A stretch of 46,959 nucleotides of DNA from a virus (taxonomy: Duplodnaviria > Heunggongvirae > Uroviricota > Caudoviricetes), in IMG/VR virus record IMGVR_UViG_2681813454_000002, positions 1 to 46,959 of that record. The stretch is one strand, 5' to 3'. Each line of letters begins with the position of its first letter. The first letter of the stretch is position 1. Position numbers and translations under genes: made by a program. Below, in pieces: positions 1,607 through 16,349 of this stretch. The notes below the pieces were generated by a model, which had not been told where the DNA came from, did no database searches, and worked only from the letters and a program-made list of their open reading frames with translations.

Positions 1607-1614
1607 GTATTACC

Positions 1615-1761: not shown

Positions 1762-1764
1762 TCT

Positions 1765-2007: not shown

Positions 2008-2091
2008 GTGGTTATCCCCAGCGGCAAATCGAATACACCATCAGCGTCACCGCCATCGCAATTCCTACCGTTGTTAATGCTTCAGGCCAGG

Positions 2092-3130: not shown

Positions 3131-3131
3131 A

Positions 3132-3617
3132 TCACTCTCCTTTGATGCGAATGCCTGTTGCAATGCTGTTTATGATGCTGTCAGTGCATGGGGTAGAAAG
3201 CTGGGCATCTCCAGCAATTTTCATGACCTCAACATCTGCATATCGAATACCGAGGTGTATCAGACCGGCTATGCCTGACTTAAGCCGAGCATTTTCCATA
3301 AATAGAACTTTTGCCCGCTGTTTTTCTGCTTCAAGCTCAACGCGCAGCTTCCCTACCGTTAGCGCAATATCCTCGTTCTCCTGATCGCGGCTTTTGATGT
3401 ATTGCAGGTTTCTTTCCCGTTCATCCAGCAGTGCCAGCACGGTTTCTGGTCCGGTCAGAAATTTGAAGGCGTTGAGCGCATCAATATCCACACCGTAATC
3501 TTTAAGTTCCTGTTCACTTAACAAGTCATCATCAGCTGGCAACATTAACAGGCGTTCCATTGCTGGAATTGCACGTTCCGCCACCTCACGCAGTGCCTGG
3601 TAATTAATTTCGCTCAC
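3132..3617 (-). CDS. Ead/Ea22-like early protein (161 aa)
   Basis: N-terminus MSEINYQALREVAERA and coiled-coil-like middle are typical of lambdoid Ea22-like proteins; GTG start after GGAGG. Confidence 0.6.
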   Translation of the reverse strand: MSEINYQALREVAERAIPAMERLLMLPADDDLLSEQELKDYGVDIDALNAFKFLTGPETVLALLDERERNLQYIKSRDQENEDIALTVGKLRVELEAEKQRAKVLFMENARLKSGIAGLIHLGIRYADVEVMKIAGDAQLSTPCTDSIINSIATGIRIKGE

Positions 3618-4120
3618 TGGTTGCCTCCTTTGCGAAGCTGGGCAGCAAAGTCAACTAACCACTCAGTCATTTCAACCTTCCCTACCAGGTCTGAACCAGG
3701 GTACATACAGCAATCACTCTGCGCCGCTTTGAAATCCTTATACTCATATTCTTGGGCCACCAGATTTTTTGCAGCTTCTATAGCAGCGTCCACCCCCTGC
3801 GCCCGGACTTCAGCCAGGAAAGCATCAGTGGTTGGCGTTTCAGGTATCTGTCTCCTCATCCGTTCTATTGCATGATTGAACCCGAAGTCTTCCGCGAGAG
3901 ATACGTCATCCATATTGTCATTGTCATCCTCAATATCCCGTGATTCTGGAATTGCAGACTTTATTCCCGCATTCTCCGCTGCCAGCGCCGCGCACTTGGC
4001 CTCAAGAGCGGCAACCACTTCCTGATGGTCTTTGTACTTAACGTATGAGCCGGAGATGTCATCACCTTCGGTGTTTAGCCATGCGTCATTGCAATTCACT
4101 GCGTAGGTTCTGATGCTCAT
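3614..4120 (-). CDS. Hypothetical early protein (168 aa, start at MSIRTY)
   Basis: ATG at 4118-4120 overlaps the TGA of the upstream 60-aa ORF (ATGA coupling); acidic middle region. Confidence 0.55.
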   Translation of the reverse strand: MSIRTYAVNCNDAWLNTEGDDISGSYVKYKDHQEVVAALEAKCAALAAENAGIKSAIPESRDIEDDNDNMDDVSLAEDFGFNHAIERMRRQIPETPTTDAFLAEVRAQGVDAAIEAAKNLVAQEYEYKDFKAAQSDCCMYPGSDLVGKVEMTEWLVDFAAQLRKGGNQ

Positions 4121-4299
4121 GTTGATGCTCTCCCGCCCCTGACAGACGCCAGGCCAGTCAATAAAGTATCCGCAATGCCTACCCTCAGACGTGCGCGCAG
4201 GATAAATGCCGTTATGACCCGGCAAATATATGCTACCCATTCATCTTGCGTTGCCTGTTCCGCCGCCTCGCGCAGTGCCTGATAGTCAATCTTGCTCAC
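4117..4299 (-). CDS. Small ORF with an Ea22-like N-terminal module (60 aa)
   Basis: Starts MSKIDYQALREAAEQA with the same RBS and start context as the 161-aa Ea22-like gene; diverges after about 20 codons. Confidence 0.4.
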   Translation of the reverse strand: MSKIDYQALREAAEQATQDEWVAYICRVITAFILRARLRVGIADTLLTGLASVRGGRAST

Positions 4300-4600
4300 T
4301 GGCAGCCTCCTTTGCCGGGATTTCTAACTTTTGAGTGGTTGTATCAAATTCAAACAACTTAACCACGTCATCAAACAGGACATAATCACCATCAGGATCT
4401 TCAGTCATATCTGCGCCACAATCCTGACCGCACGAGTCGCAACCATCCATATCAAGCTCGTATCGCTTCAGGTTTGCGATATTTGATAAATTCAGCGCCA
4501 GTACAGCCAGGTCATAAACCTCTTCGGCAGTGACATCGCTGTTCAGTCCCATTTCATGGCGATATATGATTTTTTCTACTCGTTGTTTTGTGATCGTCAT
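4286..4600 (-). CDS. Hypothetical protein (104 aa from the MTITKQ start)
   Basis: ATG at 4598-4600 with RBS GGAGTGAAGAG; acidic, Cys-containing. Confidence 0.5.
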   Translation of the reverse strand: MTITKQRVEKIIYRHEMGLNSDVTAEEVYDLAVLALNLSNIANLKRYELDMDGCDSCGQDCGADMTEDPDGDYVLFDDVVKLFEFDTTTQKLEIPAKEAASEQD

Positions 4601-4871
4601 TTTTCTCTTCACTCCGATATACAAGGATTACTACACCCCCTCTGCTGATTGCGCGAGCTGGATCCCCTGGTTCCATGCCGTCAATTCCGAAGGCTTCGGA
4701 AAACGCATTCATTGCCTTCTGGCGTTCATCCTGCTTACGGCGTTTATTCCATTTTTTCAGGAACAACAGCGACAGCCACCGTCCGCTGCAGAACACGATG
4801 TAAAAATAACCAAGGAGCGCCAGGCCGACATTCAGGGCCGTTTCTATGGTTAGTTGTGAGTCAGTTGCCAT
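4554..4871 (-). CDS. Hypothetical small membrane protein (105 aa)
   Basis: RBS AGGTAAG before the ATG at 4869-4871; predicted hydrophobic segment LNVGLALLGYFYIVF; 3' end overlaps the next gene in another frame. Confidence 0.4.
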   Translation of the reverse strand: MATDSQLTIETALNVGLALLGYFYIVFCSGRWLSLLFLKKWNKRRKQDERQKAMNAFSEAFGIDGMEPGDPARAISRGGVVILVYRSEEKNDDHKTTSRKNHISP

Positions 4872-5109
4872 TTCTTACCTGTTTAAGTAACTGGTTGAAC
4901 ATAACACTTAGGGGATTGCTGTATCCAAACGGCAGATTGTTTACGCAGTACAGAATCATTTTGTTTTTTTCTCCAGTTCGTACTATTAACCCATTCCACA
5001 ATAACCGTGATAATTCATTACTGATAGAAGTTGCGCTTCTTCCAAGTGCGAGGGATATATCTTCTCTACTGCAATCTGGATTTTCCTGGATATACTCGAT
5101 AACGGTCAT
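4861..5109 (-). CDS. Putative winged-helix DNA-binding protein (82 aa, start at MTVIEY)
   Basis: ATG at 5107-5109 after AAAAGGGA; sequence MTVIEYIQENPDCSREDISLALGRSATSISNELSRLLWNGLI resembles wHTH regulators. Confidence 0.5.
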   Translation of the reverse strand: MTVIEYIQENPDCSREDISLALGRSATSISNELSRLLWNGLIVRTGEKNKMILYCVNNLPFGYSNPLSVMFNQLLKQVRNGN

Positions 5110-5119
5110 GTGGTCCCTT

Positions 5120-5701
5120 TTACTTAATATCTGTTTCGGATTGCATGCCATGAGTATTCATTTCGTTAATAATTTCATCCAGAAGGATTTCAAGCCCTTC
5201 TCGACCCATATCTGAAAGAATGAAACCTTTATCAGGGGAAGTAGTGAGCATTTTCTGATAAAGAAACAGCGCTCTTCCCATTCCTTCAGCTTCGCCGTAT
5301 TTTTGAATTAAATTCCATTCAATATACTGTTGTAAGGCAAATCGAATGGGGCCGGGATATATCGTCATAAACCCATACATCCCGTTATATACCACGGCGT
5401 GTTCAGTTGTTCCGTGTTCATTCAGGATATCAATTGTGCCGTTCTTGTCTTCTTCTTCGTTGATGAATGTCGTCACATACAACCATCGCCACTGAGCAAC
5501 CTTCATCTCAACCGGAAGTTTACCCAGTAATCCTGCTTCGTCGGCTTGCGCCAGACACTGAAGGATACGTAAACCTCGCACATTAGGAGTATCGAATTCT
5601 CCGGCATCCAGACGACGTATGGCGTCGTGATAATCAATCGTCATACTGCCAGTTCGTATACCATTGGCTGTTGCTTCAGCCTGGAATTCATCGTATTGCA
5701 T
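5120..5701 (-). CDS. Hypothetical protein (193 aa), uncharacterised accessory gene
   Basis: Long ORF with RBS GAGGAA before the ATG at 5699-5701; lies in a low-GC island. Confidence 0.6.
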   Translation of the reverse strand: MQYDEFQAEATANGIRTGSMTIDYHDAIRRLDAGEFDTPNVRGLRILQCLAQADEAGLLGKLPVEMKVAQWRWLYVTTFINEEEDKNGTIDILNEHGTTEHAVVYNGMYGFMTIYPGPIRFALQQYIEWNLIQKYGEAEGMGRALFLYQKMLTTSPDKGFILSDMGREGLEILLDEIINEMNTHGMQSETDIK

Positions 5702-5706
5702 GATAT

Positions 5707-5895
5707 TTATTCCTCATCTTCATCTTCATCTGCTGGTGCAATAACGTCATATCCTGCCCTTTCTGCAATAAACAGGAATGTTGAAAGAGTTCCTACAAGT
5801 TCATCGTCATGAACATGGCGAATGAATATTACTTTCCCGTTTTTGATGGTCAGCAATATTCTGGTTTGTTCGTGTTCTGCTGTTTTCTGATGCAT
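5707..5895 (-). CDS. Hypothetical small protein (62 aa) with an acidic C-terminus
   Basis: RBS GGGAGA before the ATG; C-terminal DEDEDEE tail; stop 6 nt before the start of the 193-aa gene. Confidence 0.45.
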   Translation of the reverse strand: MHQKTAEHEQTRILLTIKNGKVIFIRHVHDDELVGTLSTFLFIAERAGYDVIAPADEDEDEE

Positions 5896-6089
5896 TATTA
5901 TCTCCCGTATGCTTTACGCAGAAATAAGCAGGCAATATGCATGTAATTTTCACCGTATTGTGCAATAAGGCAGGCGGTCTTGTGTGATGCCATATTCTTT
6001 ATAAAAGTCACAATAAAGCCTCCTGTGGATTAAGGTTGTAACAATCCCCGGCGATAAAACCGCAATAAACGTTCAGGGCATATTTGTTG

Positions 6090-6455
6090 TTATTGCGCTA
6101 ATTCTTTTTCGGCAGCAGCTTTTGTATACTCACATGCAAAACTCAGAATTTCGCTGCCGAGTGTTTTCGTTTCGTGATTACTGGACATATGTAATACCTG
6201 TGTTGCATGCAATAAATGATAAACATTTACCGCAAATGAATCAGGCTCCAGACAAATGCCTTCGTAATTATCTTGCTGTGAGGTTGTTTCTGTCATTGCT
6301 CCTGAAGTGCATGCGAGCCTGTTTTTGACAATTCTCTTTTCTCTAATCACTATATCGGCAACATCTATTGCCTTTACAACCTCCGGGAGAAGTTCCGGGT
6401 TTGTATAATCAAAGTCATCAACATGGAGAACAGTTATGTTTTCGAACTTTTTCAT
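6090..6455 (-). CDS. Hypothetical protein (121 aa), uncharacterised accessory gene
   Basis: RBS GAGGAAG before the ATG at 6453-6455. Confidence 0.55.
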   Translation of the reverse strand: MKKFENITVLHVDDFDYTNPELLPEVVKAIDVADIVIREKRIVKNRLACTSGAMTETTSQQDNYEGICLEPDSFAVNVYHLLHATQVLHMSSNHETKTLGSEILSFACEYTKAAAEKELAQ

Positions 6456-6696
6456 GGCTTCCTCAGCTGACTTATATGTTCTGCTATATAGCGAGTCTCA
6501 GAAGTGTTTTCATATTGAGACTGTTTCCGCAATGATTGATAAAAATGTTCGCATGTACCTTGAAGGGCGAAGCGGCGATTATGTCACTATTGGTATTGGT
6601 TCTTCCGCAGAAGAGCTTCGCGAGATAAGGGGCAAACTTGTTGAGATGCGTCATGGTGTTGCTGCTCCTCACTTTTTGGTTGCTCCGGAGGAGTAA
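6436..6696 (+). CDS. Candidate plus-strand ORF (86 aa) embedded in the leftward operon
   Basis: GGAG 7 nt upstream of the ATG at 6436; overlaps the 5' end of the 121-aa gene and the 3' end of the HTH gene; may be spurious. Confidence 0.2.
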   Translation: MFSNFFMASSADLYVLLYSESQKCFHIETVSAMIDKNVRMYLEGRSGDYVTIGIGSSAEELREIRGKLVEMRHGVAAPHFLVAPEE

Positions 6697-7087
6697 CCTC
6701 ACCAGTTAACAGCCACATCGGATCGCAGCCAAGAATATTTGCCAGTGGGATAAGCATACTGATAGTTGGTTCATACTCTCCGCTCTCCCACTGGATGATA
6801 ATTTCTTCATCGAGATCGAGCAGCCTGGCGAGTTCGGCGGTTGTTAAGCCGCAGGCTTCGCGTTGGGTGCGAAGACGGTTGTTGATTGCAGAATTTTTGT
6901 TCTGTAAAAGCATTGCTGACGATAGCTTTCTGGATATGCTATTTGTCATATCCCATGCCAGTCCTGCGCATGACTCTATATCGCTAGAGAGCGTAGCATC
7001 AGGTGTTGCTTTTGCTATTAGTGTAATGAGGCTGCCGAGGTTTTTCAGTTCTTCGAGACAGTCAAGAGTTGTAGCTTTATTGATCAT
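6587..7087 (-). CDS. HTH (XRE-family) DNA-binding protein (166 aa), first gene of the leftward early operon
   Basis: Central motif GLTTAELARLLDLDEEIIIQWESGEYEPTISMLIPLANILGCDPMWLLTGE is a Cro/C1-type HTH; RBS TGAGGT before the ATG at 7085-7087; preceded by operator-like repeats. Confidence 0.6.
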   Translation of the reverse strand: MINKATTLDCLEELKNLGSLITLIAKATPDATLSSDIESCAGLAWDMTNSISRKLSSAMLLQNKNSAINNRLRTQREACGLTTAELARLLDLDEEIIIQWESGEYEPTISMLIPLANILGCDPMWLLTGEVTPPEQPKSEEQQHHDASQQVCPLSREALLRKNQYQ

Positions 7088-7116
7088 GAGATGATACCTC
7101 AGTTACGAACTTTGTT

Positions 7117-7170
7117 TTATGGTAACTAAGGTATCAAGGTGTGGCAAGTGATTTTTGATACTTTGGTTTC
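7117..7170. promoter_or_regulatory. OL-like operator/promoter region (TTGATAC repeats)
   Basis: Two TTGATAC(C/T)-type motifs in opposite orientation (7130-7137 minus strand, 7155-7166 plus strand) between the cI stop and the first leftward gene. Confidence 0.4.
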
Positions 7171-7190
7171 TTTTTGTGTTTTGTGTCTGG

Positions 7191-7847
7191 TCAGAAAATA
7201 TCCCACCTGGCATCAACCACAACACCTACTATTTCGCAATCATTGTCCATTTCTATGATTGGATATTGTGGATTAAGGGGCTTTAGAAACGCCTTTCCCA
7301 TGTCAGAAATATATTTTTTGAATGTTGCTTCATTGGTCGATTTTTTTCTGGCGATGACGTAACACCCTGAAAAAACTTCTTTATCTGGGTTGACAAGGAT
7401 CGACATTCCTTCAGGAAATGTTATTCCTACGGGCGAAGTCATTGAGTCTCCGTGCACTTCCAGCCAGAACCCCCTCTCACCAGCGTATTTTACAGAATGC
7501 CTCCAATTATCCTGATCATACATGTTGTAGTCATCACCAGAAGTTGCGAATAATCCTGCCTGAACCCAGTTAATTACAGGGTAAGAGTGTGCTGTGTCTC
7601 TCTGTGGGCAGCTCTTAACATTATTTTCCCAATGCTTATCTTTTTCATCTCCGTTCTGAAGCCACTGCGGTGAACACCGCAGTGCAGCTGCAACTTTAAA
7701 AAGGGTGTCACCGTTGAAACTTTTTGTAAGGCCTTGCTCGGCTTTACTGATTGCAACTCTGGTGATCCCAGCTTTTTTAGCCAACGCATCTTGTGTTAAC
7801 CCAGCTTTTTGCCGTGCGTTGATGAGACGTTCACCTAAAGACTTCAT
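7191..7847 (-). CDS. cI: CI-like prophage repressor (HTH plus S24 LexA-like autocleavage domain, 218 aa)
   Basis: N-terminal HTH (LTQDALAKKAGITRVAISKAEQG) and C-terminal S24-peptidase-like domain; ATG at 7845-7847 with RBS GAGGAG; divergent from the rightward genes. Confidence 0.85.
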   Translation of the reverse strand: MKSLGERLINARQKAGLTQDALAKKAGITRVAISKAEQGLTKSFNGDTLFKVAAALRCSPQWLQNGDEKDKHWENNVKSCPQRDTAHSYPVINWVQAGLFATSGDDYNMYDQDNWRHSVKYAGERGFWLEVHGDSMTSPVGITFPEGMSILVNPDKEVFSGCYVIARKKSTNEATFKKYISDMGKAFLKPLNPQYPIIEMDNDCEIVGVVVDARWDIF

Positions 7848-7861
7848 TTTTCTTCTCCTCT

Positions 7862-7955
7862 CATGGCTGTTGATACTAAAGTAACAGAATTTCTTGATAC
7901 TTTGGATTCCCGTGGTTAACATCGTTGGATAACAAAGTATCTGGTGTGAGACTAA
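7862..7955. promoter_or_regulatory. OR-like operator/promoter region (PRM/PR) with repeated TTGATAC half-sites
   Basis: TTGATACTAAAGTA at 7870, TTGATACTTTGG at 7894 and inverted GATAACAAAGTATC at 7928-7941, in the divergent intergenic region between cI and the rightward genes. Confidence 0.5.
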
Positions 7956-7958
7956 AGA

Positions 7959-8186
7959 ATGACCCTTTATGAAATATTAAAAATTCAATTTAAAACCAAT
8001 GCCGCTATTGGTCGCAGGTTCCCAAAGAAAGGAAGGCCTCGTGGCAGTCAAGGTGTTGGAAAGTGGAAAACGCGAGGTGTTCCGGAGGATGTTGCCATTC
8101 TTTGTCATCTGGATCCGAGCATTCCATATACACACCCAAGTCTAGCGAATACAGAAGATGACAAGCCCACAGGAGACCAACAATGA
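7959..8186 (+). CDS. Hypothetical ORF in the Cro position (75 aa), doubtful
   Basis: Only ORF between OR and the Rha gene; basic and Pro/Gly-rich, no HTH recognisable; weak RBS. Confidence 0.2.
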   Translation: MTLYEILKIQFKTNAAIGRRFPKKGRPRGSQGVGKWKTRGVPEDVAILCHLDPSIPYTHPSLANTEDDKPTGDQQ

Positions 8187-8890
8187 ACACCGCAATTTTT
8201 AACGGCAAAGCATCCATGACCAGCGTTGAGATCGCAGAGCTGGTGGGTAAACGTCATGACAATGTGAAACGCACTATTGAAACATTAGCCAAAGGTGGCG
8301 TTGTCCGGTCTCCTCAAATTGAGGTTTCCGAAAGAATCAATAACTTAGGTTTTAAAGTTCAATATGAGCATTACCTGTTTGAAGGAGAACAAGGTAAGCG
8401 CGACAGCATCATTGTCGTCGCACAGCTCTGTCCTGAATTCACTGCTCGCCTGGTAGATCGCTGGCGCGAACTGGAAGAACAGATCCGTAAGCCAATGAGC
8501 GAAATCGAAATGGTTGCCGCGATGGCTCTTGAAGCCGTTCGCCAACAGAAACGGATCACTCAGGTGGAAGAAAAAGTCAGCCACGTTGCTGAAACAGTCG
8601 AGCAAATTAAAAAGGGCACTATTCGTGAGGGCTATGCCGGATATCGCCAACTGAAAGCAAAAACCGGTTTGTCAGATGATAAATGCCGCAATCTGGTGAA
8701 CGCCTATCAGATTCCTACAGACACCCATGAGTTCATGACGCCGGACGGATTGTTGTCACGTCGCGCAATTGTTGCTGTGGAACCGTTTATGGCTGCTTTT
8801 TATCGGGTTATGGAGGAAGCAGAACCGCGAGGGACTCGCTGGTATCACCCGAAAATGGGGTTATTTCAGGTTATTGGTTGGCAGCGGTGA
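8183..8890 (+). CDS. Rha-family phage regulatory protein / antirepressor-like (235 aa)
   Basis: N-terminus ..MTSVEIAELVGKRHDNVKRTIETL.. is typical of the Rha family; RBS GGAGA before the ATG. Confidence 0.75.
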   Translation: MNTAIFNGKASMTSVEIAELVGKRHDNVKRTIETLAKGGVVRSPQIEVSERINNLGFKVQYEHYLFEGEQGKRDSIIVVAQLCPEFTARLVDRWRELEEQIRKPMSEIEMVAAMALEAVRQQKRITQVEEKVSHVAETVEQIKKGTIREGYAGYRQLKAKTGLSDDKCRNLVNAYQIPTDTHEFMTPDGLLSRRAIVAVEPFMAAFYRVMEEAEPRGTRWYHPKMGLFQVIGWQR

Positions 8891-8913
8891 AAAAAAGCCG
8901 GGAGTAACCCGGC
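8890..8913 (-). terminator. Hairpin plus T-run, intrinsic terminator oriented for leftward transcription
   Basis: A7 then GCCGGG-AGTAA-CCCGGC on the plus strand; on the minus strand this is a stem-loop followed by U7. Confidence 0.35.
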
Positions 8914-9020
8914 TCACTCAACATCAATAACGGGGAGCTGTTTCGCATAAAACGGCTCCGAAACATCCAAGAACAGTTCTAAAGATATCAGCAGCTATAT
9001 GATCATTTCAAGACCAAATA

Positions 9021-9049
9021 TTGATTCTGCAATTTCGGGACGTTACACT
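9021..9049 (+). promoter_or_regulatory. Candidate sigma70 promoter (TTGATT-17 bp-TACACT)
   Basis: -35 at 9021-9026 and -10 at 9044-9049 with 17-bp spacing, in a noncoding region of about 400 bp. Confidence 0.3.
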
Positions 9050-9112
9050 GTCTCTGCACCTTATAAAGCGGGTGCCGGGGGTCGCAGCCCGGAATTGTCA
9101 ACGGCGATATAT

Positions 9113-9133
9113 GACGCGCCAGCGTCTTTTTTA
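9113..9133 (+). terminator. Intrinsic terminator (GACGC-GCCA-GCGTC plus T6)
   Basis: Perfect 5-bp GC-rich stem followed by TTTTTT, about 65 nt downstream of the candidate promoter. Confidence 0.45.
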
Positions 9134-9298
9134 TCGTCCGCGCTCACGCACGCCAGAATTATGGTGGGCTGGGCAGGGGAGCCGAAAGGCTCGCCGGTTT
9201 CCGTTGACGCCGGTACTGCGAACCCTGTTCAGTCTGCCACCAGTGAGTTTCGCAGCTCCGGTGGTGGAAGTTTTCCACAGTCAACGGAGGCTGCCATC

Positions 9299-9850
9299 AT
9301 GGCTACGATCCCAACCCTCACTCAACCTGAAATTGCCATCGTTGATGGTCAGGCTGTTACTTCATCCCTGGCTGTTGCCAACTTCTTCTCCAAGCGTCAT
9401 GACGATGTACTGAAAAAGATCCGCACGCTTGAATGCTCCGCATCATTCACTGCCCGCAATTTTTCGGTGAGTGATTACACCGATTGCACAGGCCGCAAAC
9501 TACCTTGCTATCAAATCACCCGTGATGGCTTCGCGTTCCTTGCTATGGGCTTTACTGGCAAACGTGCAGCCCGGTTCAAAGAGGCATACATCAACGCCTT
9601 TAACCTGATGGAGAAGAGTTTATCAGGTGCCGATGCGTCTGATATGTCAGCTGTCGCACGAAACGCCAGAGGCGTATACCTGCATTTGCGTGAAATCCAT
9701 CAAATCTGGACAAGCCAGCTTTATCCAATGCTTAAGGCCGTTGAATCTCCGCTGGCTAGCAAACTGTACGACCGTGTTGGTGATGCTGTTTTTGGCGCTG
9801 CACTTGTTGATTCCAGGCTGAATGGTTCTGACAAGGAGGTTCGCCCATGA
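9299..9850 (+). CDS. Second Rha-family protein (183 aa from the MATIPTL start)
   Basis: ATG at 9299 after ACGGAGG; ..AVANFFSKRHDDVLKKIRTL.. Rha-like N-terminal domain; the upstream in-frame extension from 8999 is low-complexity and probably untranslated. Confidence 0.7.
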   Translation: MATIPTLTQPEIAIVDGQAVTSSLAVANFFSKRHDDVLKKIRTLECSASFTARNFSVSDYTDCTGRKLPCYQITRDGFAFLAMGFTGKRAARFKEAYINAFNLMEKSLSGADASDMSAVARNARGVYLHLREIHQIWTSQLYPMLKAVESPLASKLYDRVGDAVFGAALVDSRLNGSDKEVRP

Positions 9851-10041
9851 TTAGTTACGAAATCATCATCTCCACTACGGAATACAGAAACGATGTATCA
9901 GTTCGCACGGATGTATCTGTCTGGCACCGTCGCTATAAATCCAGAAAAACAGCGGAACTGAAAGCGGCAGAGATGTGTGAAACCATCTCAATGAAAGGTA
10001 GCCCGGTTAAATACGTAACTACGGTGGAGGTGCGTCCATGA
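9847..10041 (+). CDS. Hypothetical protein (64 aa)
   Basis: RBS GGAGG before the ATG; ATGA overlap with the upstream gene. Confidence 0.5.
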   Translation: MISYEIIISTTEYRNDVSVRTDVSVWHRRYKSRKTAELKAAEMCETISMKGSPVKYVTTVEVRP

Positions 10042-10262
10042 TCCGCCACATCGTTAATTCCCTGTATCACCGATACAACCGTTGCCCCCGTGTGGGGCAG
10101 TGGTTCGCCACCAGCAACGGTCACGTTCTGCGGGTTTGCCTAGTCAACGCTGAAAGCCAGAAAGTCGTGTGCGAACTACAGGGGCGTAGCTACACCATCA
10201 GTTACCCTCTGGCGGTATTTCTGTCTGGAAAAATGTTTAAGCGTCTGGGAGGTGTGGCGTGA
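10038..10262 (+). CDS. Hypothetical protein (74 aa)
   Basis: RBS GGAGGTG; ATGA overlap coupling. Confidence 0.5.
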   Translation: MIRHIVNSLYHRYNRCPRVGQWFATSNGHVLRVCLVNAESQKVVCELQGRSYTISYPLAVFLSGKMFKRLGGVA

Positions 10263-10558
10263 ACTGTTTTCAGTTTGTGTGCGGATGTGCTTTCGATAAC
10301 CCGATTCAGCGCCTAATTATGTTGCGTGTTTTGATGTCGGGTTCTTCAGACGGTGAAGGCGAGAGAGTTATTGATCATCAGGTGCTTGCTGATTTCTGCT
10401 GTTGTTCTAAGCAAGCGATATTCAGGGAAACCCTGGCACTGGAAAGAGCTGGTTATCTTCATATCCGAAAAATTGCAACGCTTACTATTGATGCAAAAGC
10501 CAGACTACAACCTGCGCGTGGCTACACAATTCTCATGCCGCGGAAGGAGGTTGTATGA
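10259..10558 (+). CDS. Hypothetical protein (99 aa), possible DNA-binding protein
   Basis: GTG start after GGAGG; coupled to the downstream O-like gene by ATGA overlap. Confidence 0.45.
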   Translation: MNCFQFVCGCAFDNPIQRLIMLRVLMSGSSDGEGERVIDHQVLADFCCCSKQAIFRETLALERAGYLHIRKIATLTIDAKARLQPARGYTILMPRKEVV

Positions 10559-11541
10559 GCCGTTACGCCCCCACACCGGAAGTTATGGCTATTGGTCAAA
10601 TTAATATTTCCGGCAATGTTACACCTGCGAACTGGTGGAAATATATTCGACTACCCAGTGGGCGTCCGGATGCGACGGCTATCGCTCTGCTTTCAGAGAT
10701 CGTTTACTGGTACCGCCCGACAGAGGTCAGGGATGAGCACACCGGAGCGTTGCTGGGATATCGCAAGCGTTTTCAGGGCGACAAACTGCAAAGAAGCTAC
10801 CAGGCGTTTGCTGAGCAGTTTGGTTTCGGGAAAAGGGAAACCGCAGATGCGCTGAAGCGTCTGCGCGATGCAGGGTTTATTACTCTGGATTTACGCACGG
10901 TGGAAATGCTCGATGGGGTGAAATGCAGCAATATTTTGTTTGTCGGGATCAACCCACAGGCAATTGCGGTCATCACCACACCTTCTTCTGTTTCGCCAGA
11001 AAGTAACAGCAATAATGCAATCAGCGATACAGCTATTACGTTAAAACGGAACACCCCCCGACGTCATAACGGAACAGGGGATACGCCGAATGTTGATACA
11101 AATACAGAGATTACTACAGAGATTACAACGGAGACTAAAAACACTATTGATGCATCCGCTGACGCGTCTGCGCGTTCTGCCCGACAGGAATATTCACCGG
11201 AATTTGAACAGGCCTGGCAGGAATATCCCAAACGTGCTGGTGGCAATTCCAAGTCAGCGGCCTTCAAAGCCTGGAAAGCCCGTATCAGGGAGGGAATAAA
11301 ACCGGAGACCATGCTTGATGGCGTGAAGCGGTATGCCGCCTGGGTACGTGCTACAGGAAATACCGGCACACAGTTCGTGAAGCAGGCTGCGACGTTCTTT
11401 GGACCCGATCGTCACTTCGAAGATTACTGGCAACAGCCAGCCGCTCACGGAGGTGGGCGACAGCGACAGGTCGATGTCCTGGCTGGCCTGGGAGCCATGT
11501 CTGACAAATTCGGTAAATCCAGTAACAAATTGACATTCTGA
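10555..11541 (+). CDS. Replication initiation protein (O-like, with a conserved phage C-terminal domain)
   Basis: C-terminal ..EFEQAWQEYPKRAGGNSKSAAFKAWKARIREG.. block is typical of phage replication initiators; sits upstream of a DnaC-like gene. Confidence 0.7.
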   Translation: MSRYAPTPEVMAIGQINISGNVTPANWWKYIRLPSGRPDATAIALLSEIVYWYRPTEVRDEHTGALLGYRKRFQGDKLQRSYQAFAEQFGFGKRETADALKRLRDAGFITLDLRTVEMLDGVKCSNILFVGINPQAIAVITTPSSVSPESNSNNAISDTAITLKRNTPRRHNGTGDTPNVDTNTEITTEITTETKNTIDASADASARSARQEYSPEFEQAWQEYPKRAGGNSKSAAFKAWKARIREGIKPETMLDGVKRYAAWVRATGNTGTQFVKQAATFFGPDRHFEDYWQQPAAHGGGRQRQVDVLAGLGAMSDKFGKSSNKLTF

Positions 11542-11542
11542 G

Positions 11543-12451
11543 GTGACAGCGATGATGACGATTGACCAACGTGAGAAACAAACAAGACTACAGGCGCGAA
11601 TGGATGAGTTACGGGCAGAAATGGATGAGTTACGGGCAGAGATTGCATTTGCTCAGAAGGGCGAAAAGCCATGGCCTTATCGTTCCTGCCTGATGCGTGA
11701 AGGTCGCGGATATTGCGAAAAACACGGTAAATATCGTACGCATATACTGGTGTGGATCGATCGTAATGGCGAGGACAGAGAAAAAATTTCATGCTGCCCT
11801 GACTGCTTGATCGCTGAGGCCAGTGATTTGACCATGGAACTGTCGTCCCTCAAGGCGGAAGAACTGACTGATAACGCCGGAATTGCTCTGCGTTTTCGGG
11901 ACTGCGAGTTTGATAATTATCTGGAGGTTAATCCTGACGCAGCCAGAAATCTTGCGGCCTGTCGCCGCTATGCGGAGAACTGGCCAGATATGCTGGAGAA
12001 CGGTACCAGTCTTGTTATGACCGGCAGTTGCGGTACCGGGAAAAATCATCTGGCGGTATCAATGGCAAAACACATCATCCGTAACTATCTGGCCAGTGTG
12101 GAGATCACCGACGTGATGCGCCTTACCCGGGCTGTGAAAAACTGCTGGCGGAATGACAGTGAAAAAACAGCGGATGACGTCATTGAGCATTATGCGTCAC
12201 TGGATTTGCTGATTGTCGACGAAGTCGGCGTTCAGTTTGGCAGTGCGGCTGAAATGGCCATTTTGCAGGAAATTATCAATGCCCGGTATGAGGGTATTTT
12301 GCCAACTATCTTGATCAGCAATCTTTCACCGGAAGAATTGTGGGCGTTCATCAGTCCCCGGATTGCCGACAGGATCACCGATGGCGGGCGCAACTGGTTG
12401 TCGTTTAACTGGCCCAGCTACCGTTCTCGTATCGGAGGTGTTGCCGCATGA
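11543..12451 (+). CDS. DnaC-like helicase loader (AAA+ ATPase)
   Basis: Walker A TGSCGTGKNHLA and Walker B LLIVDEVG; the real start may be the ATG at 11552 (RBS GAGGTGA). Confidence 0.8.
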   Translation: MTAMMTIDQREKQTRLQARMDELRAEMDELRAEIAFAQKGEKPWPYRSCLMREGRGYCEKHGKYRTHILVWIDRNGEDREKISCCPDCLIAEASDLTMELSSLKAEELTDNAGIALRFRDCEFDNYLEVNPDAARNLAACRRYAENWPDMLENGTSLVMTGSCGTGKNHLAVSMAKHIIRNYLASVEITDVMRLTRAVKNCWRNDSEKTADDVIEHYASLDLLIVDEVGVQFGSAAEMAILQEIINARYEGILPTILISNLSPEELWAFISPRIADRITDGGRNWLSFNWPSYRSRIGGVAA

Positions 12452-13848
12452 CCAGCCAGAACACCCCGGCATGGCGTAACGATGACCTGGAAGGCGCTGT
12501 CATCGGTGCGTTTTTTCTGCGTGGGGCCGATCCGGAAGTGATGGATATTCTGGCCACACTTCCGGCGGATGTATTTTTTGTGCGTCAGTACCGGGATATT
12601 TACGCGGGGATTTGCAGACAGGCTCGCATATCCGGCGTCATTGACCCCGTACTGCTGTGCAATGAGATGCCGGAACTTGCCCCGGTGATTACCGACACCG
12701 GACGCAAAACCTGGGTGAAGTCTTCACTGGAGCACTATGTCGCAGCGTTGCGGCGCAATGCCGCACTGCGCGATGCAGAAAAAACACTGACTGAAGCATT
12801 ACAGAATTTACGTGATGCGTATACCTGTGAAGCAGCCGAGGATGCCCTGAAGGATGTGCAGAACATGATGGCCTCACTGTCGACCGGAAAGGGCGTCATT
12901 CAGCCGGTTCACATTGATGATGTCCTTCCGGAAGTGGTCGACCGTGTTGAATGCCGCAATCAGGGACTGGAGAAATCCAGGGCGCTGATGACCGGTATTG
13001 ATGAACTGGACGCAAAAACGGGCGGTATGGAGCCCGGAGACCTGGTATTCATTGCCGCCCGTCCTTCGATGGGGAAAACCGAACTTGCGCTGGACATCAT
13101 CGACAAGGTGACTGAGCAGGGGCATGGCGTGCTTCTGTTCACCATGGAGATGGCGAACATCCAGATTGGTGAACGTATGGTGTCTGCTGCCGGTGGAATG
13201 CCGGTATCCCGTCTTAAGTCTGTTGCCCGTTTTGAAGATGAAGACTGGGCGCGTTTCTCGCAGGGCGTGGGACGAATGACGGGGCGTAATATCTGGATGG
13301 TGGACCAGGCAAACCTGACCATTGATGAGATATGTGCAACCACGAAGCACCACCGGATGAAACACCCGGAAACGGCGCTGGTGGTGGTCGATTACCTCGG
13401 CCTGATTAAAACCCGCAGCACGGGGCGTCACGACCTTGCGGTGGGGGAAATCTCAAAGGGACTTAAAAGCCTGGCAAAATCCGGCGGTTTTCCGCTGATT
13501 GCTCTGAGCCAGCTCTCCCGCGGCGTGGAATCCAGACCCAATAAACGCCCAATGAACTCGGACCTGAAAAACTCCGGGGAAATCGAGGCGGATGCCGACA
13601 TCATTCTGATGCTTTACAGGGATGAGGTATACAACCCGGAAACTCAGGCCAGAGGCATAGCAGAAATCAACATCACGAAACAGCGTAATGGCACGCTCGG
13701 GACCATTTACCGGCGTTTTCATAACGGACATTTTCTGCCTGTGGACCAGGAGAGTGCCCGGGTTCTTTCCACACCCATGACGCCGGGCAATCCGCGCAGA
13801 TACAGCAATAACCGCATGTCGGGCAGTAAAACGGAGCGTTTATTTTGA
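12448..13848 (+). CDS. DnaB-like replicative DNA helicase
   Basis: Walker A ARPSMGKTELAL, a ..VVVDYLGLI.. block and a RecA-like C-terminal domain typical of DnaB-family helicases. Confidence 0.85.
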   Translation: MTSQNTPAWRNDDLEGAVIGAFFLRGADPEVMDILATLPADVFFVRQYRDIYAGICRQARISGVIDPVLLCNEMPELAPVITDTGRKTWVKSSLEHYVAALRRNAALRDAEKTLTEALQNLRDAYTCEAAEDALKDVQNMMASLSTGKGVIQPVHIDDVLPEVVDRVECRNQGLEKSRALMTGIDELDAKTGGMEPGDLVFIAARPSMGKTELALDIIDKVTEQGHGVLLFTMEMANIQIGERMVSAAGGMPVSRLKSVARFEDEDWARFSQGVGRMTGRNIWMVDQANLTIDEICATTKHHRMKHPETALVVVDYLGLIKTRSTGRHDLAVGEISKGLKSLAKSGGFPLIALSQLSRGVESRPNKRPMNSDLKNSGEIEADADIILMLYRDEVYNPETQARGIAEINITKQRNGTLGTIYRRFHNGHFLPVDQESARVLSTPMTPGNPRRYSNNRMSGSKTERLF

Positions 13849-14102
13849 ACAACAGAACAATCACTGTTTCACCGGAACAACTTCGTCGGCAGGCGCAGGA
13901 GATGCTTCGTTGTGCTGAACAGATGAAAAAAACGAGCGTGAAAAAAGATACGCTCCGCAAGCAGCTTACTCCGGCGCTTCGTGATCTGCTGCAGGCAAAA
14001 CACCGCACACAAAAGGCGGTGGATGAGCTGGTGGATTGCGTGGCGGAACTGGAAGGACAGGTAAGCCAGTTTGAAACGCTGGTGAAGGAGTTTACTGCGT
14101 GA
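13845..14102 (+). CDS. Hypothetical coiled-coil protein (85 aa)
   Basis: Probable TTG start overlapping the dnaB-like stop; start codon uncertain. Confidence 0.4.
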   Translation: MNNRTITVSPEQLRRQAQEMLRCAEQMKKTSVKKDTLRKQLTPALRDLLQAKHRTQKAVDELVDCVAELEGQVSQFETLVKEFTA

Positions 14103-14148
14103 TGGCTGAATTTTTTTCTCCTGCGTTCATGCAATACCGTTCGCTGAG

Positions 14149-15144
14149 GTGACCGTGAGAGCACTGCTGACCCCTGAAATTGCCCCGCGTATGGGGATTG
14201 TATTGTTCAGGCCCGGTTCAGAGCTGATGCCCCTGTTTATGCAGGGGCGTGTCCTGCTGGAGCCTGAGCCGGAACGTTATTCATCTTTCGCCAGCGGTGC
14301 CGTTCCGGCAGCATCACAACCGCTGGCGGATGATCCTGCCGTTCGGGCCGTGTTCCGCCATGAGGCGGTGATCCGTCGTGCTGGTGGCGTGGAATGCCTT
14401 GAGAGCTGGTTACTTCGTGAAAAAGGCTGTCAGTGGCCTCATTCCGACTGGCACAGCGAGAACATGACCACAATGCGGCACGCGCCAGGCGCAATCCGTC
14501 TGTGCTGGCACTGTGACAATCTTCTCCGTGACCAGTTCACGGAACGGCTGGAAGCAATGGCAACGGATAACTGTGCCCGCTGGGTGTTGTCTGTTGTGCG
14601 CCGTGATCTTGGTTTTGATGACAGTCACGTTGTGACAATGCCGGAACTGTGCTGGTGGCTGATTCGTAATGACCTGGCGGATGCCTTACCGGAAAGTGCA
14701 GCCCGTAAGGCACTGAGATTACCGAAGCCTGTTGTGCCGTCTGTCACCCGGGAAAGTGACCTTGTGCCTTCGGTTACTGCCACCAGCATCATCCAGGATA
14801 AGGCGAAAAAGGTGCTGGCGCTGAAAGTGGATCCGGAGTCGCCGGAGTCTTTTATGTTACGCCCAAAACGTCGTCGCTGGGTTAATGAAAAGTACACGCG
14901 CTGGGTTAAGACGCAGCCGTGTGCATGTTGTGGTAAGCCAGCCGACGATCCCCATCACCTGATTGGTCATGGTCAGGGCGGAATGGGGACAAAATCTCAC
15001 GATATTTTCACGCTACCGCTGTGTCGGGAGCATCACAACGAGCTTCATGCGGATCCTCTGGCGTTCGAAGAAAAGCATGGTTCTCAGGTTGATTTAATTT
15101 TTCGTTTTCTTGATCACGCCTTTGCAACTGGCGTGCTTGGGTAA
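14149..15144 (+). CDS. DUF968-like protein with a C-terminal HNH-type Cys/His motif (putative nuclease)
   Basis: C-terminal ..CACCGKPADDPHHLIGHGQGGMGTKSHDIFTLPLCREHHNELH.. resembles an HNH zinc-finger nuclease motif; nin-region position upstream of rusA. Confidence 0.6.
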   Translation: MTVRALLTPEIAPRMGIVLFRPGSELMPLFMQGRVLLEPEPERYSSFASGAVPAASQPLADDPAVRAVFRHEAVIRRAGGVECLESWLLREKGCQWPHSDWHSENMTTMRHAPGAIRLCWHCDNLLRDQFTERLEAMATDNCARWVLSVVRRDLGFDDSHVVTMPELCWWLIRNDLADALPESAARKALRLPKPVVPSVTRESDLVPSVTATSIIQDKAKKVLALKVDPESPESFMLRPKRRRWVNEKYTRWVKTQPCACCGKPADDPHHLIGHGQGGMGTKSHDIFTLPLCREHHNELHADPLAFEEKHGSQVDLIFRFLDHAFATGVLG

Positions 15145-15156: not shown

Positions 15157-15531
15157 ATGCTCATAGATTTGGTTTTACCTTACCCGCCGACGGTGAACAC
15201 TTACTGGCGACGCCGTGGCAGCACATATTTTATCTCGGAGGAGGGAAAGCGTTATCGCCGGGCTGTGGCGCTTATTGTTCGCCAGCAGCGGCTGAAATTA
15301 AGCCTGTCCGGAAGGCTGGCGATAAAGGTGATTGCAGAGCCACCGGATAAGCGTCGTCGCGACCTGGACAATATCCTGAAAGCACCGCTGGATGCGCTGA
15401 CGCATGCGGGAGTGTTAATGGACGATGAGCAGTTTGATGAAATCAATATCGTTCGTGGTCAGCCAGTATCTGGTGGACGTATGGGGGTGAAGATTTACCC
15501 CATAATGCATGAAGAGCAGGTCAAAAAATGA
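15157..15531 (+). CDS. rusA: Holliday junction resolvase RusA
   Basis: Characteristic RusA sequence (..PPTVNTYWRRRG.., ..RRRDLDNILKAPLDAL..); RBS AAGAGG. Confidence 0.85.
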   Translation: MLIDLVLPYPPTVNTYWRRRGSTYFISEEGKRYRRAVALIVRQQRLKLSLSGRLAIKVIAEPPDKRRRDLDNILKAPLDALTHAGVLMDDEQFDEINIVRGQPVSGGRMGVKIYPIMHEEQVKK

Positions 15532-16349
15532 AACTGGAAGATTTACCGAAATACTACTCCCCAAAATCCCCTGGCCTGACCGATGCATCGGCCTCAACGT
15601 CAAAAGATGCGCTGAGTATCACTGATGTGATGGCCGCGCAGGGCATGACACAGAATCGGGCTGAGATGGGGTTTTCTGCGTTCCTGGGGAAAATGGGCAT
15701 CAGTATGAATGACAGGGCGCGGGCAACAGAATTACTGGCAGATTATGCACTCAGTCGGTGCGATCGTGTGGCGGCGTTGAGAAAACTTCCGGCAGAAATA
15801 AAACCGGTAGTGATGCGCATTATGGCTTCGTATGCGTTTGAAGATTATGCCCGTAGCGCGGCGAGCAAAAAACAGTGCCCTTGCTGTCACGGAAAAAAAT
15901 TTATTGAAAGCGAGGTTTTTACAAACAAGATCCAGTATCCGGATGGTAAGCCACCAGTGTGGGCAAAGTGCACAAAAGGCGTGTATCCGTCTTACTGGGA
16001 AGAATGGAAAAAAGTCAGGGAGGTGGTAAAAGTTGCCTGTCCGGAGTGTGGCGGAAAGGGTGAGGTTTCCACCGCCTGTAAGGATTGCCGTGGGCGTGGT
16101 GTCGCCATTCATCGTGAAGAGTCGGTAAAACGTGGTATGCCTGTTATCAGAGATTGCCAGCGTTGTGGTGGTCGTGGCTGTGAAAGGCTGCCATCAACGG
16201 AGGCATTTAATGCCATATGCAAAGTGACGAGTGCTATCACGCTTGATACGTGGAAAAAATCAGTGAAACGCTTTTACGATACGTTGGTGGTTCGGTTTGA
16301 CATTGAAGAGGCATGGGCGGAGCGGCAGTTAAAGAGGGTAACGCGATAG
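15528..16349 (+). CDS. Late-gene antiterminator (Q-like) with CxxCxGxG zinc-finger repeats
   Basis: Last gene before a promoter-plus-terminator (PR'/tR'-like) unit; four Cys-pair motifs (CPCCHGKK, CPECGGKG, CKDCRGRG, CQRCGGRG). Confidence 0.6.
   Translation: MKLEDLPKYYSPKSPGLTDASASTSKDALSITDVMAAQGMTQNRAEMGFSAFLGKMGISMNDRARATELLADYALSRCDRVAALRKLPAEIKPVVMRIMASYAFEDYARSAASKKQCPCCHGKKFIESEVFTNKIQYPDGKPPVWAKCTKGVYPSYWEEWKKVREVVKVACPECGGKGEVSTACKDCRGRGVAIHREESVKRGMPVIRDCQRCGGRGCERLPSTEAFNAICKVTSAITLDTWKKSVKRFYDTLVVRFDIEEAWAERQLKRVTR

What the first reader, a model, noticed from the sequence alone, without database searches (positions are those of the whole stretch)
10555..13848. Replication module encodes an initiator, a DnaC-like loader and a DnaB-like helicase
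Lambdoid phages usually carry O plus P (lambda), O plus a DnaC-like loader, or an initiator plus their own DnaB-like helicase (P22-type). Here all three are present and translationally coupled, implying largely host-independent helicase loading.
Basis: partly seen in the sequence, partly recalled or inferred. Interest (0 to 1): 0.4.

Follow-up and report, generated by a model that had tools for sequence, protein, structure and literature searches.

The report
Known initiator–loader–helicase phage replication module
An E. coli prophage carries three adjacent genes for a replication initiator, a DnaC-like helicase loader and its own DnaB-like helicase; the genes are real and intact, but this layout is an already described, fairly common type of phage replication module.

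Summary
Window 10555-13848 holds three same-strand, tightly packed genes. The first is a 328-aa initiator with a winged-helix N-domain, a disordered linker and a helical C-domain. The second is a 299/302-aa DnaC-like AAA+ loader. The third is a 466-aa DnaB-family helicase with all catalytic motifs intact.

All three are under purifying selection (dN/dS 0.07-0.25). The trio stays linked in prophages of E. coli, Salmonella and Yersinia, and in Aeromonas phage AsXd-1 and Pseudomonas phage F10.

It is not new. The same block is in phage phiP27 (GenBank AJ298298), many Stx phages and 408 of 5426 complete E. coli genomes. RefSeq annotates it gene by gene in phage F10. A 2022 paper, citing Weigel & Seitz 2006, calls this layout a typical "ILH-type" (initiator-helicase loader-helicase) module.

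Independence from host DnaB and DnaC is plausible but unproven. The loader's zinc-ribbon-like N-domain also occurs in 54 of 72 sampled loaders that have no phage helicase nearby, so it does not prove specificity for the phage helicase.

Extra findings:
- The initiator is modular, with at least four different N-domains on one shared C-domain.
- 12-bp tandem repeats in the linker are candidate origin sites.
- A conserved 99-aa winged-helix ORF lies directly upstream.

The parts
10259..10558 (+). ORF99, a small winged-helix-like protein directly upstream of the initiator. It is an optional companion gene of this initiator type.
   Evidence: It matches PHROG 4617 'replication initiation protein' at 2e-29, covering only profile positions 3-93 of 223. 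There is a weak HTH_Crp_2 hit. Homologues of 102-103 aa sit in the same position in Salmonella L088 and Yersinia L090. dN/dS against Yersinia is 0.12. The ORF is absent from E. coli loci L060 and L082, which carry the same initiator type. Its GTGA start overlaps the stop of the upstream 74-aa ORF, and its own stop overlaps the initiator start in ATGA.
10555..11541 (+). Replication initiator, 328 aa. N-terminal winged-helix domain is aa 1-144 (10555-10986), disordered linker aa 145-210 (10987-11184), helical C-terminal domain aa 211-295 (11185-11439), followed by a disordered tail.
10256..11144 (.). Exchangeable cassette: ORF99 plus the initiator N-domain and linker. In related phages it is replaced by unrelated N-domain cassettes.
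   Evidence: blastn against phiP27, PhiR49_2, ASU11, Stx2_EH2201 and IMG/VR loci shows homology stopping at about 10254-10262 and resuming at 11104-11145. blastp shows that only the C-terminal ~130-165 aa of the initiators are shared, while the loader is 81-95% identical and the helicase 92-98%. Initiator lengths of 271/274, 304, 308, 318 and 326-334 aa are found upstream of the same loader in 80 IMG/VR loci.
11103..11134 (.). 12-bp tandem repeat TACAGAGATTAC, 2.7 copies, in the linker-coding region. It is a candidate origin iteron array and is untested.
   Evidence: Tandem Repeats Finder reported it. ACAGAGAWTAC-type 12-bp repeats are also kept in Salmonella and Yersinia, where dS for the initiator or its neighbours is above 1. 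Other N-domain types carry different repeats at the same position. Window 11080-11160 is the most AT-rich part of the gene, at 62-68%.
11552..12451 (+). DnaC-like AAA+ helicase loader, 299 aa from the ATG (302 aa from the GTG at 11543). The N-domain is aa 1-~95, a coiled coil plus a C55-x2-H58...C82-x2-C85 motif. The AAA+ core is aa ~96-299.
   Evidence: PF01695 at 4e-14, PHROG 50 at 1e-87, NF005931 DnaC at 4e-36 (125 bits, below the 357-bit equivalog cut-off). It aligns to E. coli DnaC residues 44-242 only. Walker A GSCGTGKN is at 158-165 and Walker B LLIVDEVG at 219-226. The CxxH...CxxC motif is conserved in Salmonella, Yersinia, Aeromonas and Pseudomonas F10. dN/dS is 0.08-0.19.
11599..11640 (.). 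21-nt perfect tandem duplication inside the loader gene, giving the peptide MDELRAE twice in the coiled coil.
   Evidence: Tandem Repeats Finder: period 21, 2.0 copies, 100% matches. The peptide occupies aa 17-23 and 24-30. Relatives with the 7-aa-shorter loader lack the second copy.
12448..13848 (+). DnaB-family replicative helicase, 466 aa.
   Evidence: DnaB_C at 8e-74 and DnaB N-domain at 1e-5 (25.7 bits against a cut-off of 23). TIGR00665 at 6e-92, below its equivalog cut-off. It aligns to E. coli DnaB residues 34-457 with Walker A, Walker B, SQLSR and KQRNG intact. dN/dS is 0.07-0.11. It follows the loader, by my ORF calls, in all 79 related IMG/VR loci whose sequence extends far enough downstream (3 of the 79 copies are cut short).
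13845..14102 (+). ORF85, a small coiled-coil protein whose TTG start overlaps the helicase stop. Function unknown; it travels with the module.
   Evidence: PHROG 2565 at 1e-30, function unknown. It is present at 67-100% identity in nearly all related loci. The junction sequence is shown.

Best explanation
[quoted passage not shown] It is transcribed rightward from the early promoter region, downstream of the cI-like and cro-like genes and two Rha-family genes.

Proposed mechanism:
1. The initiator's N-terminal winged-helix domain binds an origin that lies inside the exchangeable N-domain/linker cassette. The 12-bp repeats at 11103-11134 are the best candidate. This step is inferred.
2. The initiator's conserved helical C-domain recruits the DnaC-like AAA+ loader. 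This is inferred from the invariable gene adjacency.
3. The loader, made in step with the helicase from overlapping genes, loads the phage's own DnaB-family hexameric helicase onto the opened origin. This is inferred.
4. Host primase and DNA polymerase III then take over. This is inferred because none was annotated in the closest genome record, which matches the window only up to 15119; I did not scan the rest of the window.

What is shown: the identity, intactness and purifying selection of the three genes, their conserved linkage, and the modular structure of the initiator.
For: Gene identities come from HMM and solved-structure matches.

Catalytic motifs are intact in both ATPases.

dN/dS is 0.07-0.25 for the initiator C-domain, the loader and the helicase against five diverged relatives.

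The trio is kept in the same order, by called genes or record annotation, in:
- Salmonella, Yersinia and a second E. coli lineage
- Aeromonas AsXd-1 and Pseudomonas F10

The loader and helicase overlap by 4 nt in F10 and in all three enterobacterial loci; the initiator-loader junction ranges from a 4-nt overlap to a gap of about 16 nt.

In all 79 IMG/VR loci that carry this loader at >=92% identity and extend far enough downstream, the helicase follows and the initiator C-domain precedes (3 of the 79 helicase copies are cut short).

In the phage collection, all 25 records with a helicase core >=71% identical also have the loader next to it. The next-nearest helicases, at <=52% identity (for example HK97 gp55), matched through their helicase part only (58% of the fused query).

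The initiator C-domain sits 0-3 nt upstream of DnaC-like loaders even in modules without a helicase, which ties that domain to the loader.

The initiator model shows a winged-helix domain, a linker and a helical domain.

N-domain cassettes and their tandem repeats change together, as with lambda O and ori.

The literature names this module type (PMC9144972 citing Weigel & Seitz 2006). In B. subtilis DnaI, a Zn-binding N-domain mediates helicase binding (PMC1636449).
Against: There is no experiment on this module.

The loader's client is not established. Its zinc-ribbon-like N-domain occurs in 54 of 72 sampled loaders with no DnaB-like gene within 4 kb, so it is not a signature of a phage-helicase-specific loader.

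Related lambdoid helicases such as HK97 gp55 have no detectable DnaC-like loader next to them, so the loader may not be strictly needed.

The origin assignment rests only on short repeats. The window, ASU11 and L092 N-domain types share a similar repeat, so the co-variation is imperfect.

Confidence: 0.72

Rival explanations
1. Split roles. The DnaC-like loader captures and loads the host DnaB, as in helicase-less DnaC-type lambdoid modules. The phage DnaB-like helicase is loaded directly by the initiator, as presumed for P22- and HK97-type modules, or it acts later, for example at the switch to rolling-circle replication. The two proteins would then be parallel rather than sequential.
For: Zinc-ribbon-type loaders mostly occur without a phage helicase (54 of 72). 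The initiator C-domain pairs with DnaC-like loaders in helicase-less modules such as Pluralibacter L006 and about 27 of 80 loci in set A. The nearest helicase relatives outside this lineage show no adjacent DnaC-like loader.
Against: The loader and helicase genes overlap by 4 nt, and this is kept across very diverged modules, including most of the 23 sampled F10-like ILH loci. Within this helicase lineage the loader is never missing: 25 of 25 phage records and 79 of 79 IMG/VR loci. The loader lacks the E. coli DnaC N-terminal DnaB-binding segment, since the alignment starts at DnaC residue 44.
Confidence: 0.2
2. Mosaic leftover. Recombination joined a DnaC-type module to a DnaB-type module, and one of the two genes is now redundant baggage with no role in replication.
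For: Lambdoid early regions are highly mosaic. Recombination breakpoints fall inside and beside these genes.
Against: Both genes have dN/dS of 0.07-0.19 and intact motifs. The pair persists from E. coli to Aeromonas and Pseudomonas, where synonymous sites are saturated.
Confidence: 0.05
3. The middle gene is an IS21-type IstB transposition helper rather than a replication loader.
For: The only Pfam family above its cut-off is PF01695 IstB_IS21.
Against: PF01695 also covers DnaC. The DnaC model scores 125 bits against 65 bits for IS21 IstB. The best solved-structure match is E. coli DnaC at 4e-29, against IS5376 IstB at 4e-3. The genes on either side are an initiator and a helicase, not an IstA-type transposase, and the gene lies in a phage early operon.
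Confidence: 0.01

Closest known systems
ILH-type (initiator-helicase loader-helicase) phage replication modules, a class attributed to Weigel & Seitz 2006 by PMC9144972. Concrete members are phiP27 L17-L18-L19, Stx-phage modules (LC5678xx) and Pseudomonas phage F10 gp052-gp054.
   Same: The gene order, overlapping stop/start codons, DnaC-like AAA+ loader and DnaB-family helicase are the same. Against phiP27 and the Stx phages the loader is 81-95% identical and the helicase 92-98%.
   Different: Only the initiator N-domain/origin cassette and the extra ORF99 differ from phiP27 and the Stx phages. F10 is about 35-37% identical in loader and helicase, and its initiator showed no BLAST similarity.
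Bacillus phage SPP1 G38P-G39P-G40P (origin-binding protein, loader, DnaB-like helicase)
   Different: G39P is not an AAA+ protein, whereas the loader here is a DnaC/DnaI-type AAA+ ATPase. There is no detectable sequence relationship to the initiator.
Lambda O/P and DnaC-type lambdoid modules (for example O157 Sakai Sp4, Sp10, Sp12; Pluralibacter locus L006)
   Same: The initiator has a DNA-binding N-domain and a partner-binding C-domain, with the candidate origin inside its own gene. The same initiator C-domain sits directly upstream of a DnaC-like loader in L006.
   Different: Those modules have no helicase gene and must use host DnaB. No lambda O or lambda P family was among the Pfam hits. 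The L006-type loaders have an E. coli-DnaC-like N-terminus without the Cys/His motif.
P22 gp18/gp12 and HK97/HK022 'P' helicase modules (initiator plus DnaB-like helicase)
   Same: The phage encodes its own DnaB-family helicase. HK97 gp55 is 48% identical to this helicase over the C-terminal domain.
   Different: No DnaC-like part of the fused query matched next to the HK97 helicase (only the helicase part, 58% of the query, is covered); that P22 also lacks a loader is from my own knowledge and PMC2669165.
Bacillus subtilis DnaI helicase loader
   Same: Both have two domains: an N-domain with a Cys/His cluster and a C-terminal AAA+ ATPase. In DnaI the Zn module mediates helicase binding (PMC1636449).
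   Different: The AAA+ core here is closer to E. coli DnaC (125 bits) than to DnaI (38 bits). No DnaI_N Pfam hit was found. The motif spacing also differs: CxxH...CxxC here against CX2CX5CX7HX16C in DnaI.

Membership tests
DnaB-family (SF4) replicative helicase | C-terminal RecA-like ATPase domain (Pfam DnaB_C) with Walker A, Walker B and the conserved SQLSR and KQRNG motifs | tested here: met
   PF03796 scores 248.7 bits against a cut-off of 27. ARPSMGKT is at 204-211, VVVDYL at 312-317, SQLSR at 354-358 and KQRNG at 411-415, all aligned to E. coli DnaB.
DnaB-family (SF4) replicative helicase | N-terminal helical DnaB domain (Pfam PF00772) | tested here: met
   25.7 bits against a cut-off of 23, over residues 12-89, so it passes only narrowly. 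The alignment to E. coli DnaB starts at residue 15.
DnaB-family (SF4) replicative helicase | Equivalog of cellular DnaB (TIGR00665) or of NCBI's curated phage_DnaB family (TIGR03600) | tested here: not met
   308.8 bits against a cut-off of 385.25, and 278.7 bits against 498.65. It is a family member but outside both curated equivalog sets.
DnaB-family (SF4) replicative helicase | Hexameric ring with 5'->3' unwinding activity | not testable with these tools
   This needs biochemistry.
DnaC/DnaI-type AAA+ helicase loader | AAA+ ATPase core of the DnaC/IstB clade with Walker A and Walker B | tested here: met
   PF01695 scores 53.1 bits against a cut-off of 24.1. E. coli DnaC 6qel_G matches at 4e-29 over loader residues 96-299 in the 302-aa (GTG-start) numbering. 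GSCGTGKN is at 158-165 and LLIVDEVG at 219-226 in the 299-aa numbering.
DnaC/DnaI-type AAA+ helicase loader | E. coli DnaC equivalog, including its N-terminal DnaB-binding segment | tested here: not met
   NF005931 scores 124.9 bits against a cut-off of 357. The alignment covers E. coli DnaC residues 44-242 only. The first ~95 residues are a different domain, a coiled coil plus CxxH...CxxC.
DnaC/DnaI-type AAA+ helicase loader | Binds and loads a DnaB-family helicase | not testable with these tools
   Only gene linkage is available: a 4-nt overlap with the helicase gene, and 79 of 79 related loci keep the pair.
ILH-type phage replication module | Initiator, helicase loader and helicase genes in that order in one early operon | tested here: met
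   PMC9144972 describes the same order as typical, and RefSeq annotates it in F10.
ILH-type phage replication module | Origin of replication bound by the module's initiator, inside or next to the initiator gene | tested here: inconclusive
   12-bp tandem repeats at 11103-11134 lie in the most AT-rich part of the gene. Repeats differ with N-domain type, but imperfectly. There are no binding or replication data.
Lambda O / lambda P module | Pfam Phage_rep_O N-domain in the initiator and a lambda P-family partner | tested here: not met
   Neither family is among the Pfam hits, even at E<=10 for the initiator. PHROG 'O-like' families match only weakly, at 3e-6 and 1e-4.
   There is no hit at E<=10.
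DnaD-like (DDBH2) C-terminal domain | Sequence or fold match to DnaD C-domain structures | tested here: inconclusive

The most novel reading that the evidence does not exclude
The shared initiator C-domain plus the zinc-ribbon DnaC-like loader may form a portable adaptor-loader unit that can serve either the host DnaB or a phage DnaB. In that reading, ILH modules like this one arose when such a unit captured a P22/HK97-type helicase gene, and the loader here has dual specificity. It would load the phage helicase for phage replication while also tying up host DnaB. In the same reading, ORF99, a stand-alone copy of an initiator-type DNA-binding domain, would act as an origin-specific regulator or exclusion factor.
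Probability: 0.15. Interest if true: 0.45.

Novelty: already known. Interest (0 to 1): 0.15.

Why it matters
This matters mainly for annotation. RefSeq labels the initiator 'hypothetical protein' and the loader 'ATP-binding protein' in the closest E. coli genome. These can be renamed with good support.

The module is in about 6-7.5% of complete E. coli genomes and in many Shiga-toxin phages. Knowing that these phages carry their own helicase and loader therefore bears on how Stx prophage replication, and so toxin gene dosage, depends on host functions. The module is also a convenient natural set of initiators with swapped origin-binding domains on a constant loader and helicase.

None of this overturns current understanding.

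Tried and rejected
1. I tested whether the loader's CxxH...CxxC N-domain marks loaders dedicated to a phage helicase, and rejected the idea.
   - Of 80 IMG/VR loci with F10-like loaders, 72 have the motif, but only 17 of those (plus 6 loaders without the motif) have an adjacent DnaB-like gene.
   - 54 have no DnaB-like ORF within 4 kb, even at phmmer E<=10.
   - The weaker association does hold: 0 of 78 loaders with an E. coli-DnaC-like N-terminus have a phage helicase.

2. Phg_2220_C, lambda O, lambda P and DnaI_N gave no Pfam hits.

3. Sequence and profile searches of the initiator against PDB found only weak winged-helix regulator hits for the N-domain and nothing credible for the C-domain.

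4. The genome-contig scan with the initiator C-domain returned one locus only, because the exact peptide patterns were too strict. That single locus, from Pluralibacter, was still informative.

5. An iteron search with 10-mers allowing one mismatch over the cassette found no multi-copy motif other than the 12-bp tandem repeat.

6. The promoter scan was at background level: 7 sites found against 8.2 expected.

7. The afdb50 fold library was unavailable.

8. Weigel & Seitz 2006 and what I believe is the original phiP27 paper (id from memory) are not in the held library. The ILH classification is therefore cited second-hand through PMC9144972 and PMC10269572.

9. The IS21 IstB reading of the middle gene was rejected, as set out under the rivals.


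Full report
**What is there**

The window is a lambdoid prophage of E. coli inserted between yecE and yecD. It is collinear, at 99.6% identity, with NZ_CP195410 over positions 1-15119 and mosaic after that.

The early rightward operon, in order:
- a cro-like gene
- two Rha-family genes
- two small ORFs (9847-10041 and 10038-10262)
- ORF99 (10259-10558)
- the three genes of the finding
- ORF85 (13845-14102)
- a DUF968/HNH gene
- RusA and a Q antiterminator

A cI-like S24 repressor is transcribed leftward at 7191-7847.

The three ORFs lie exactly at the coordinates given. From ORF64 to ORF85 the junctions are ATGA, GTGA or TTGA overlaps. The exception is the initiator/loader junction, a 1-nt gap to the GTG or a 10-nt gap to the ATG. 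GGAGG-type ribosome-binding sites sit inside the preceding genes. For the loader, the ATG at 11552 (the RefSeq start) has the better-placed GAGGTG. The GTG at 11543 is probably part of that site.

**Gene identities**

The helicase (466 aa) matches DnaB_C at 8e-74, the DnaB N-domain at 1e-5 and TIGR00665 at 6e-92. It aligns to E. coli DnaB structures over residues 15-429 at 1e-63, with Walker A, Walker B, SQLSR and KQRNG intact.

The loader matches PF01695 at 4e-14, PHROG 50 at 1e-87 and E. coli DnaC (6qel_G) at 4e-29. Only DnaC residues 44-242 align, which is the AAA+ core. The first ~95 residues are a different domain: a coiled coil followed by C55-x2-H58...C82-x2-C85. This window carries a 21-nt tandem duplication in the coiled coil. 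The Cys/His motif is conserved in Salmonella, Yersinia, Aeromonas and Pseudomonas relatives. The architecture recalls B. subtilis DnaI, whose Zn-binding N-domain mediates helicase binding (PMC1636449).

**Are the genes functional and linked?**

Pairwise dN/dS is 0.07-0.25 for the initiator C-domain, the loader and the helicase. The comparisons were against phiP27, PhiR49_2, Stx2_EH2201, a second E. coli lineage and Salmonella.

The trio keeps the same order in Salmonella, Yersinia and another E. coli lineage, where the initiators are 50-66% identical. It is also kept in Aeromonas phage AsXd-1 and Pseudomonas phage F10.

Of 80 IMG/VR loci carrying this loader at >=92% identity, all 79 that extend far enough downstream have the helicase after it (3 of those copies are cut short). 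All 80 have the initiator C-domain before it.

**How common is it?**

The iniC-loader-helicase block (window 11145-13848) matches 408 of 5426 complete E. coli genomes, and 329 of them cover >=80% of it.

I ran a tblastn with the loader core fused to the helicase core against 50,697 phage records:
- 52 records have the two genes adjacent in this order: 25 E. coli, Stx or Aeromonas phages and 27 Pseudomonas phages.
- 1744 records match either part.

The GenBank record of phiP27 already labels the pair 'putative replication protein DnaC' and 'putative helicase'. RefSeq labels the F10 trio as initiator, DnaC-like loader and DnaB-like helicase.

The fourth combination is simply another described type.

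**Initiator modularity and candidate origin**

Across phiP27, PhiR49_2, ASU11, the Stx2 phages and this window, the loader is 81-95% identical and the helicase 92-98%. The initiators share only their C-terminal ~130-165 residues. At the DNA level, homology breaks at about 10254-10262 and resumes at 11104-11145. Upstream of the same loader I found at least four unrelated N-domain types and five or six length classes.

This is the lambda O pattern: an origin-specific N-domain and a partner-specific C-domain. The same C-domain also sits 0-3 nt upstream of DnaC-like loaders in modules that have no helicase. Examples are Pluralibacter L006 and about 27 of 80 loci in a second IMG/VR sample. The C-domain therefore most likely contacts the loader rather than the helicase.

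Each N-domain type carries its own short tandem DNA repeat just before the shared C-domain:
- ACAGAGAWTAC, 3-4 copies at a 12-bp period, in the window, ASU11, L092, Salmonella and Yersinia types
- GAACCAGTCAA in PhiR49_2 and AsXd-1
- AAACATGATCCGCAAG in phiP27

In the window the repeat lies at 11103-11134, in the most AT-rich part of the gene. ACAGAGAWTAC-type repeats are also kept in Salmonella and Yersinia, although synonymous sites are saturated there. I regard these repeats as candidate iterons. The assignment is untested, and the co-variation with N-domain type is imperfect.

**Does the loader serve the phage helicase?**

I tested whether the zinc-ribbon-like N-domain marks loaders that come with a phage helicase.
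- In 80 IMG/VR loci with E. coli-DnaC-like N-termini, none of the 78 evaluable loci has a DnaB-like gene within 4 kb.
- In 80 loci with F10-like loaders, 72 have the CxxH...CxxC motif. Only 17 of those, plus 6 loaders without the motif, have an adjacent helicase.
- 54 have none, even at phmmer E<=10.

Phage helicases therefore accompany only the zinc-ribbon loader clade in my samples, but most members of that clade do without one and presumably load host DnaB.

This weakens any claim of strict specificity and keeps open a rival in which the loader works on host DnaB. In favour of a cognate pair:
- the 4-nt gene overlap is conserved across very diverged modules;
- the loader is never lost within this helicase lineage;
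- the loader lacks the E. coli DnaC N-terminal DnaB-binding segment.

No primase or polymerase gene is annotated in the closest genome record, which matches the window only up to 15119. 'Host-independent' could therefore apply only to the DnaB/DnaC step.

**Verdict**

- The feature is an ordinary, well-conserved member of a known module class.
- The useful outputs are better names for two poorly annotated genes, the cassette structure of the initiator with candidate origin repeats, and the negative result on N-domain specificity.

Noticed in passing
window 10259-10558 (+): ORF99 is a 99-aa winged-helix-like protein that matches only the N-terminal part of an initiator family (phrog_4617, positions 3-93 of 223). 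Homologues of 102-103 aa sit in the same place in Salmonella and Yersinia, yet the ORF is cleanly absent from some E. coli relatives with the same initiator. It could be a regulator, an origin-specific exclusion factor, or a retained N-domain of a displaced initiator.
   Followed up: partly
window 11103-11134; L003, L002, L004, L088, L090, L092, L095 at the equivalent position: Each initiator N-domain type has its own short tandem DNA repeat immediately before the shared C-domain. ACAGAGAWTAC-type 12-bp repeats like the window's are kept in Salmonella and Yersinia despite saturated synonymous divergence. These are candidate origin iterons.
   Followed up: partly
window 11599-11640: A perfect 21-nt tandem duplication in the loader gene doubles the heptad MDELRAE in the N-terminal coiled coil. 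Close relatives with a 7-aa-shorter loader lack it.
   Followed up: partly
window 13845-14102 (+): ORF85 is a small coiled-coil protein of unknown function (phrog_2565). Its TTG start overlaps the helicase stop codon, and it travels with the module in nearly all related loci.
   Followed up: no
IMG/VR loci L176-L255: DnaC-like loaders with a CxxH...CxxC N-domain are widespread in viral contigs, and most (54 of 72) have no DnaB-like gene within 4 kb. Loaders with an E. coli-DnaC-like N-terminus (L096-L175) never had one (0 of 78).
   Followed up: yes
L006 (Pluralibacter gergoviae) 4431-6076; about 27 loci of L096-L175: The initiator C-terminal domain (motif EFEQAWQEYPKRxGGNSK...FFGP) is also found directly upstream of DnaC-like loaders in modules without a helicase. 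It appears to be a loader-associated domain used by many unrelated origin-binding N-domains.
   Followed up: partly
window 8183-8890 and 8999-9850 (+): Two consecutive Rha-family genes, the second with an Ash domain, lie between the cro-like gene and the replication genes. This resembles the layout reported for Eru6, Eru7 and Eru9 Stx phages (PMC8951638).
   Followed up: no
window 1-15119 versus 15120-46959: The window matches NZ_CP195410 almost perfectly up to 15119. After that it switches to a different late-gene set: RusA at 15157-15531 and a PF03589 Q antiterminator at 15528-16349, in place of that genome's Q-family gene. The mosaic junction is right after the DUF968 gene.
   Followed up: partly
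L001 features at window 10555-11541 and 11552-12451: RefSeq (PGAP) names the initiator 'hypothetical protein' and the loader 'ATP-binding protein'. In phage records the same genes are variously called 'primosomal protein I', 'transcriptional regulator', 'DNA helicase' (for the loader) and 'replication protein' (for the helicase), so the public annotation is inconsistent.
   Followed up: yes
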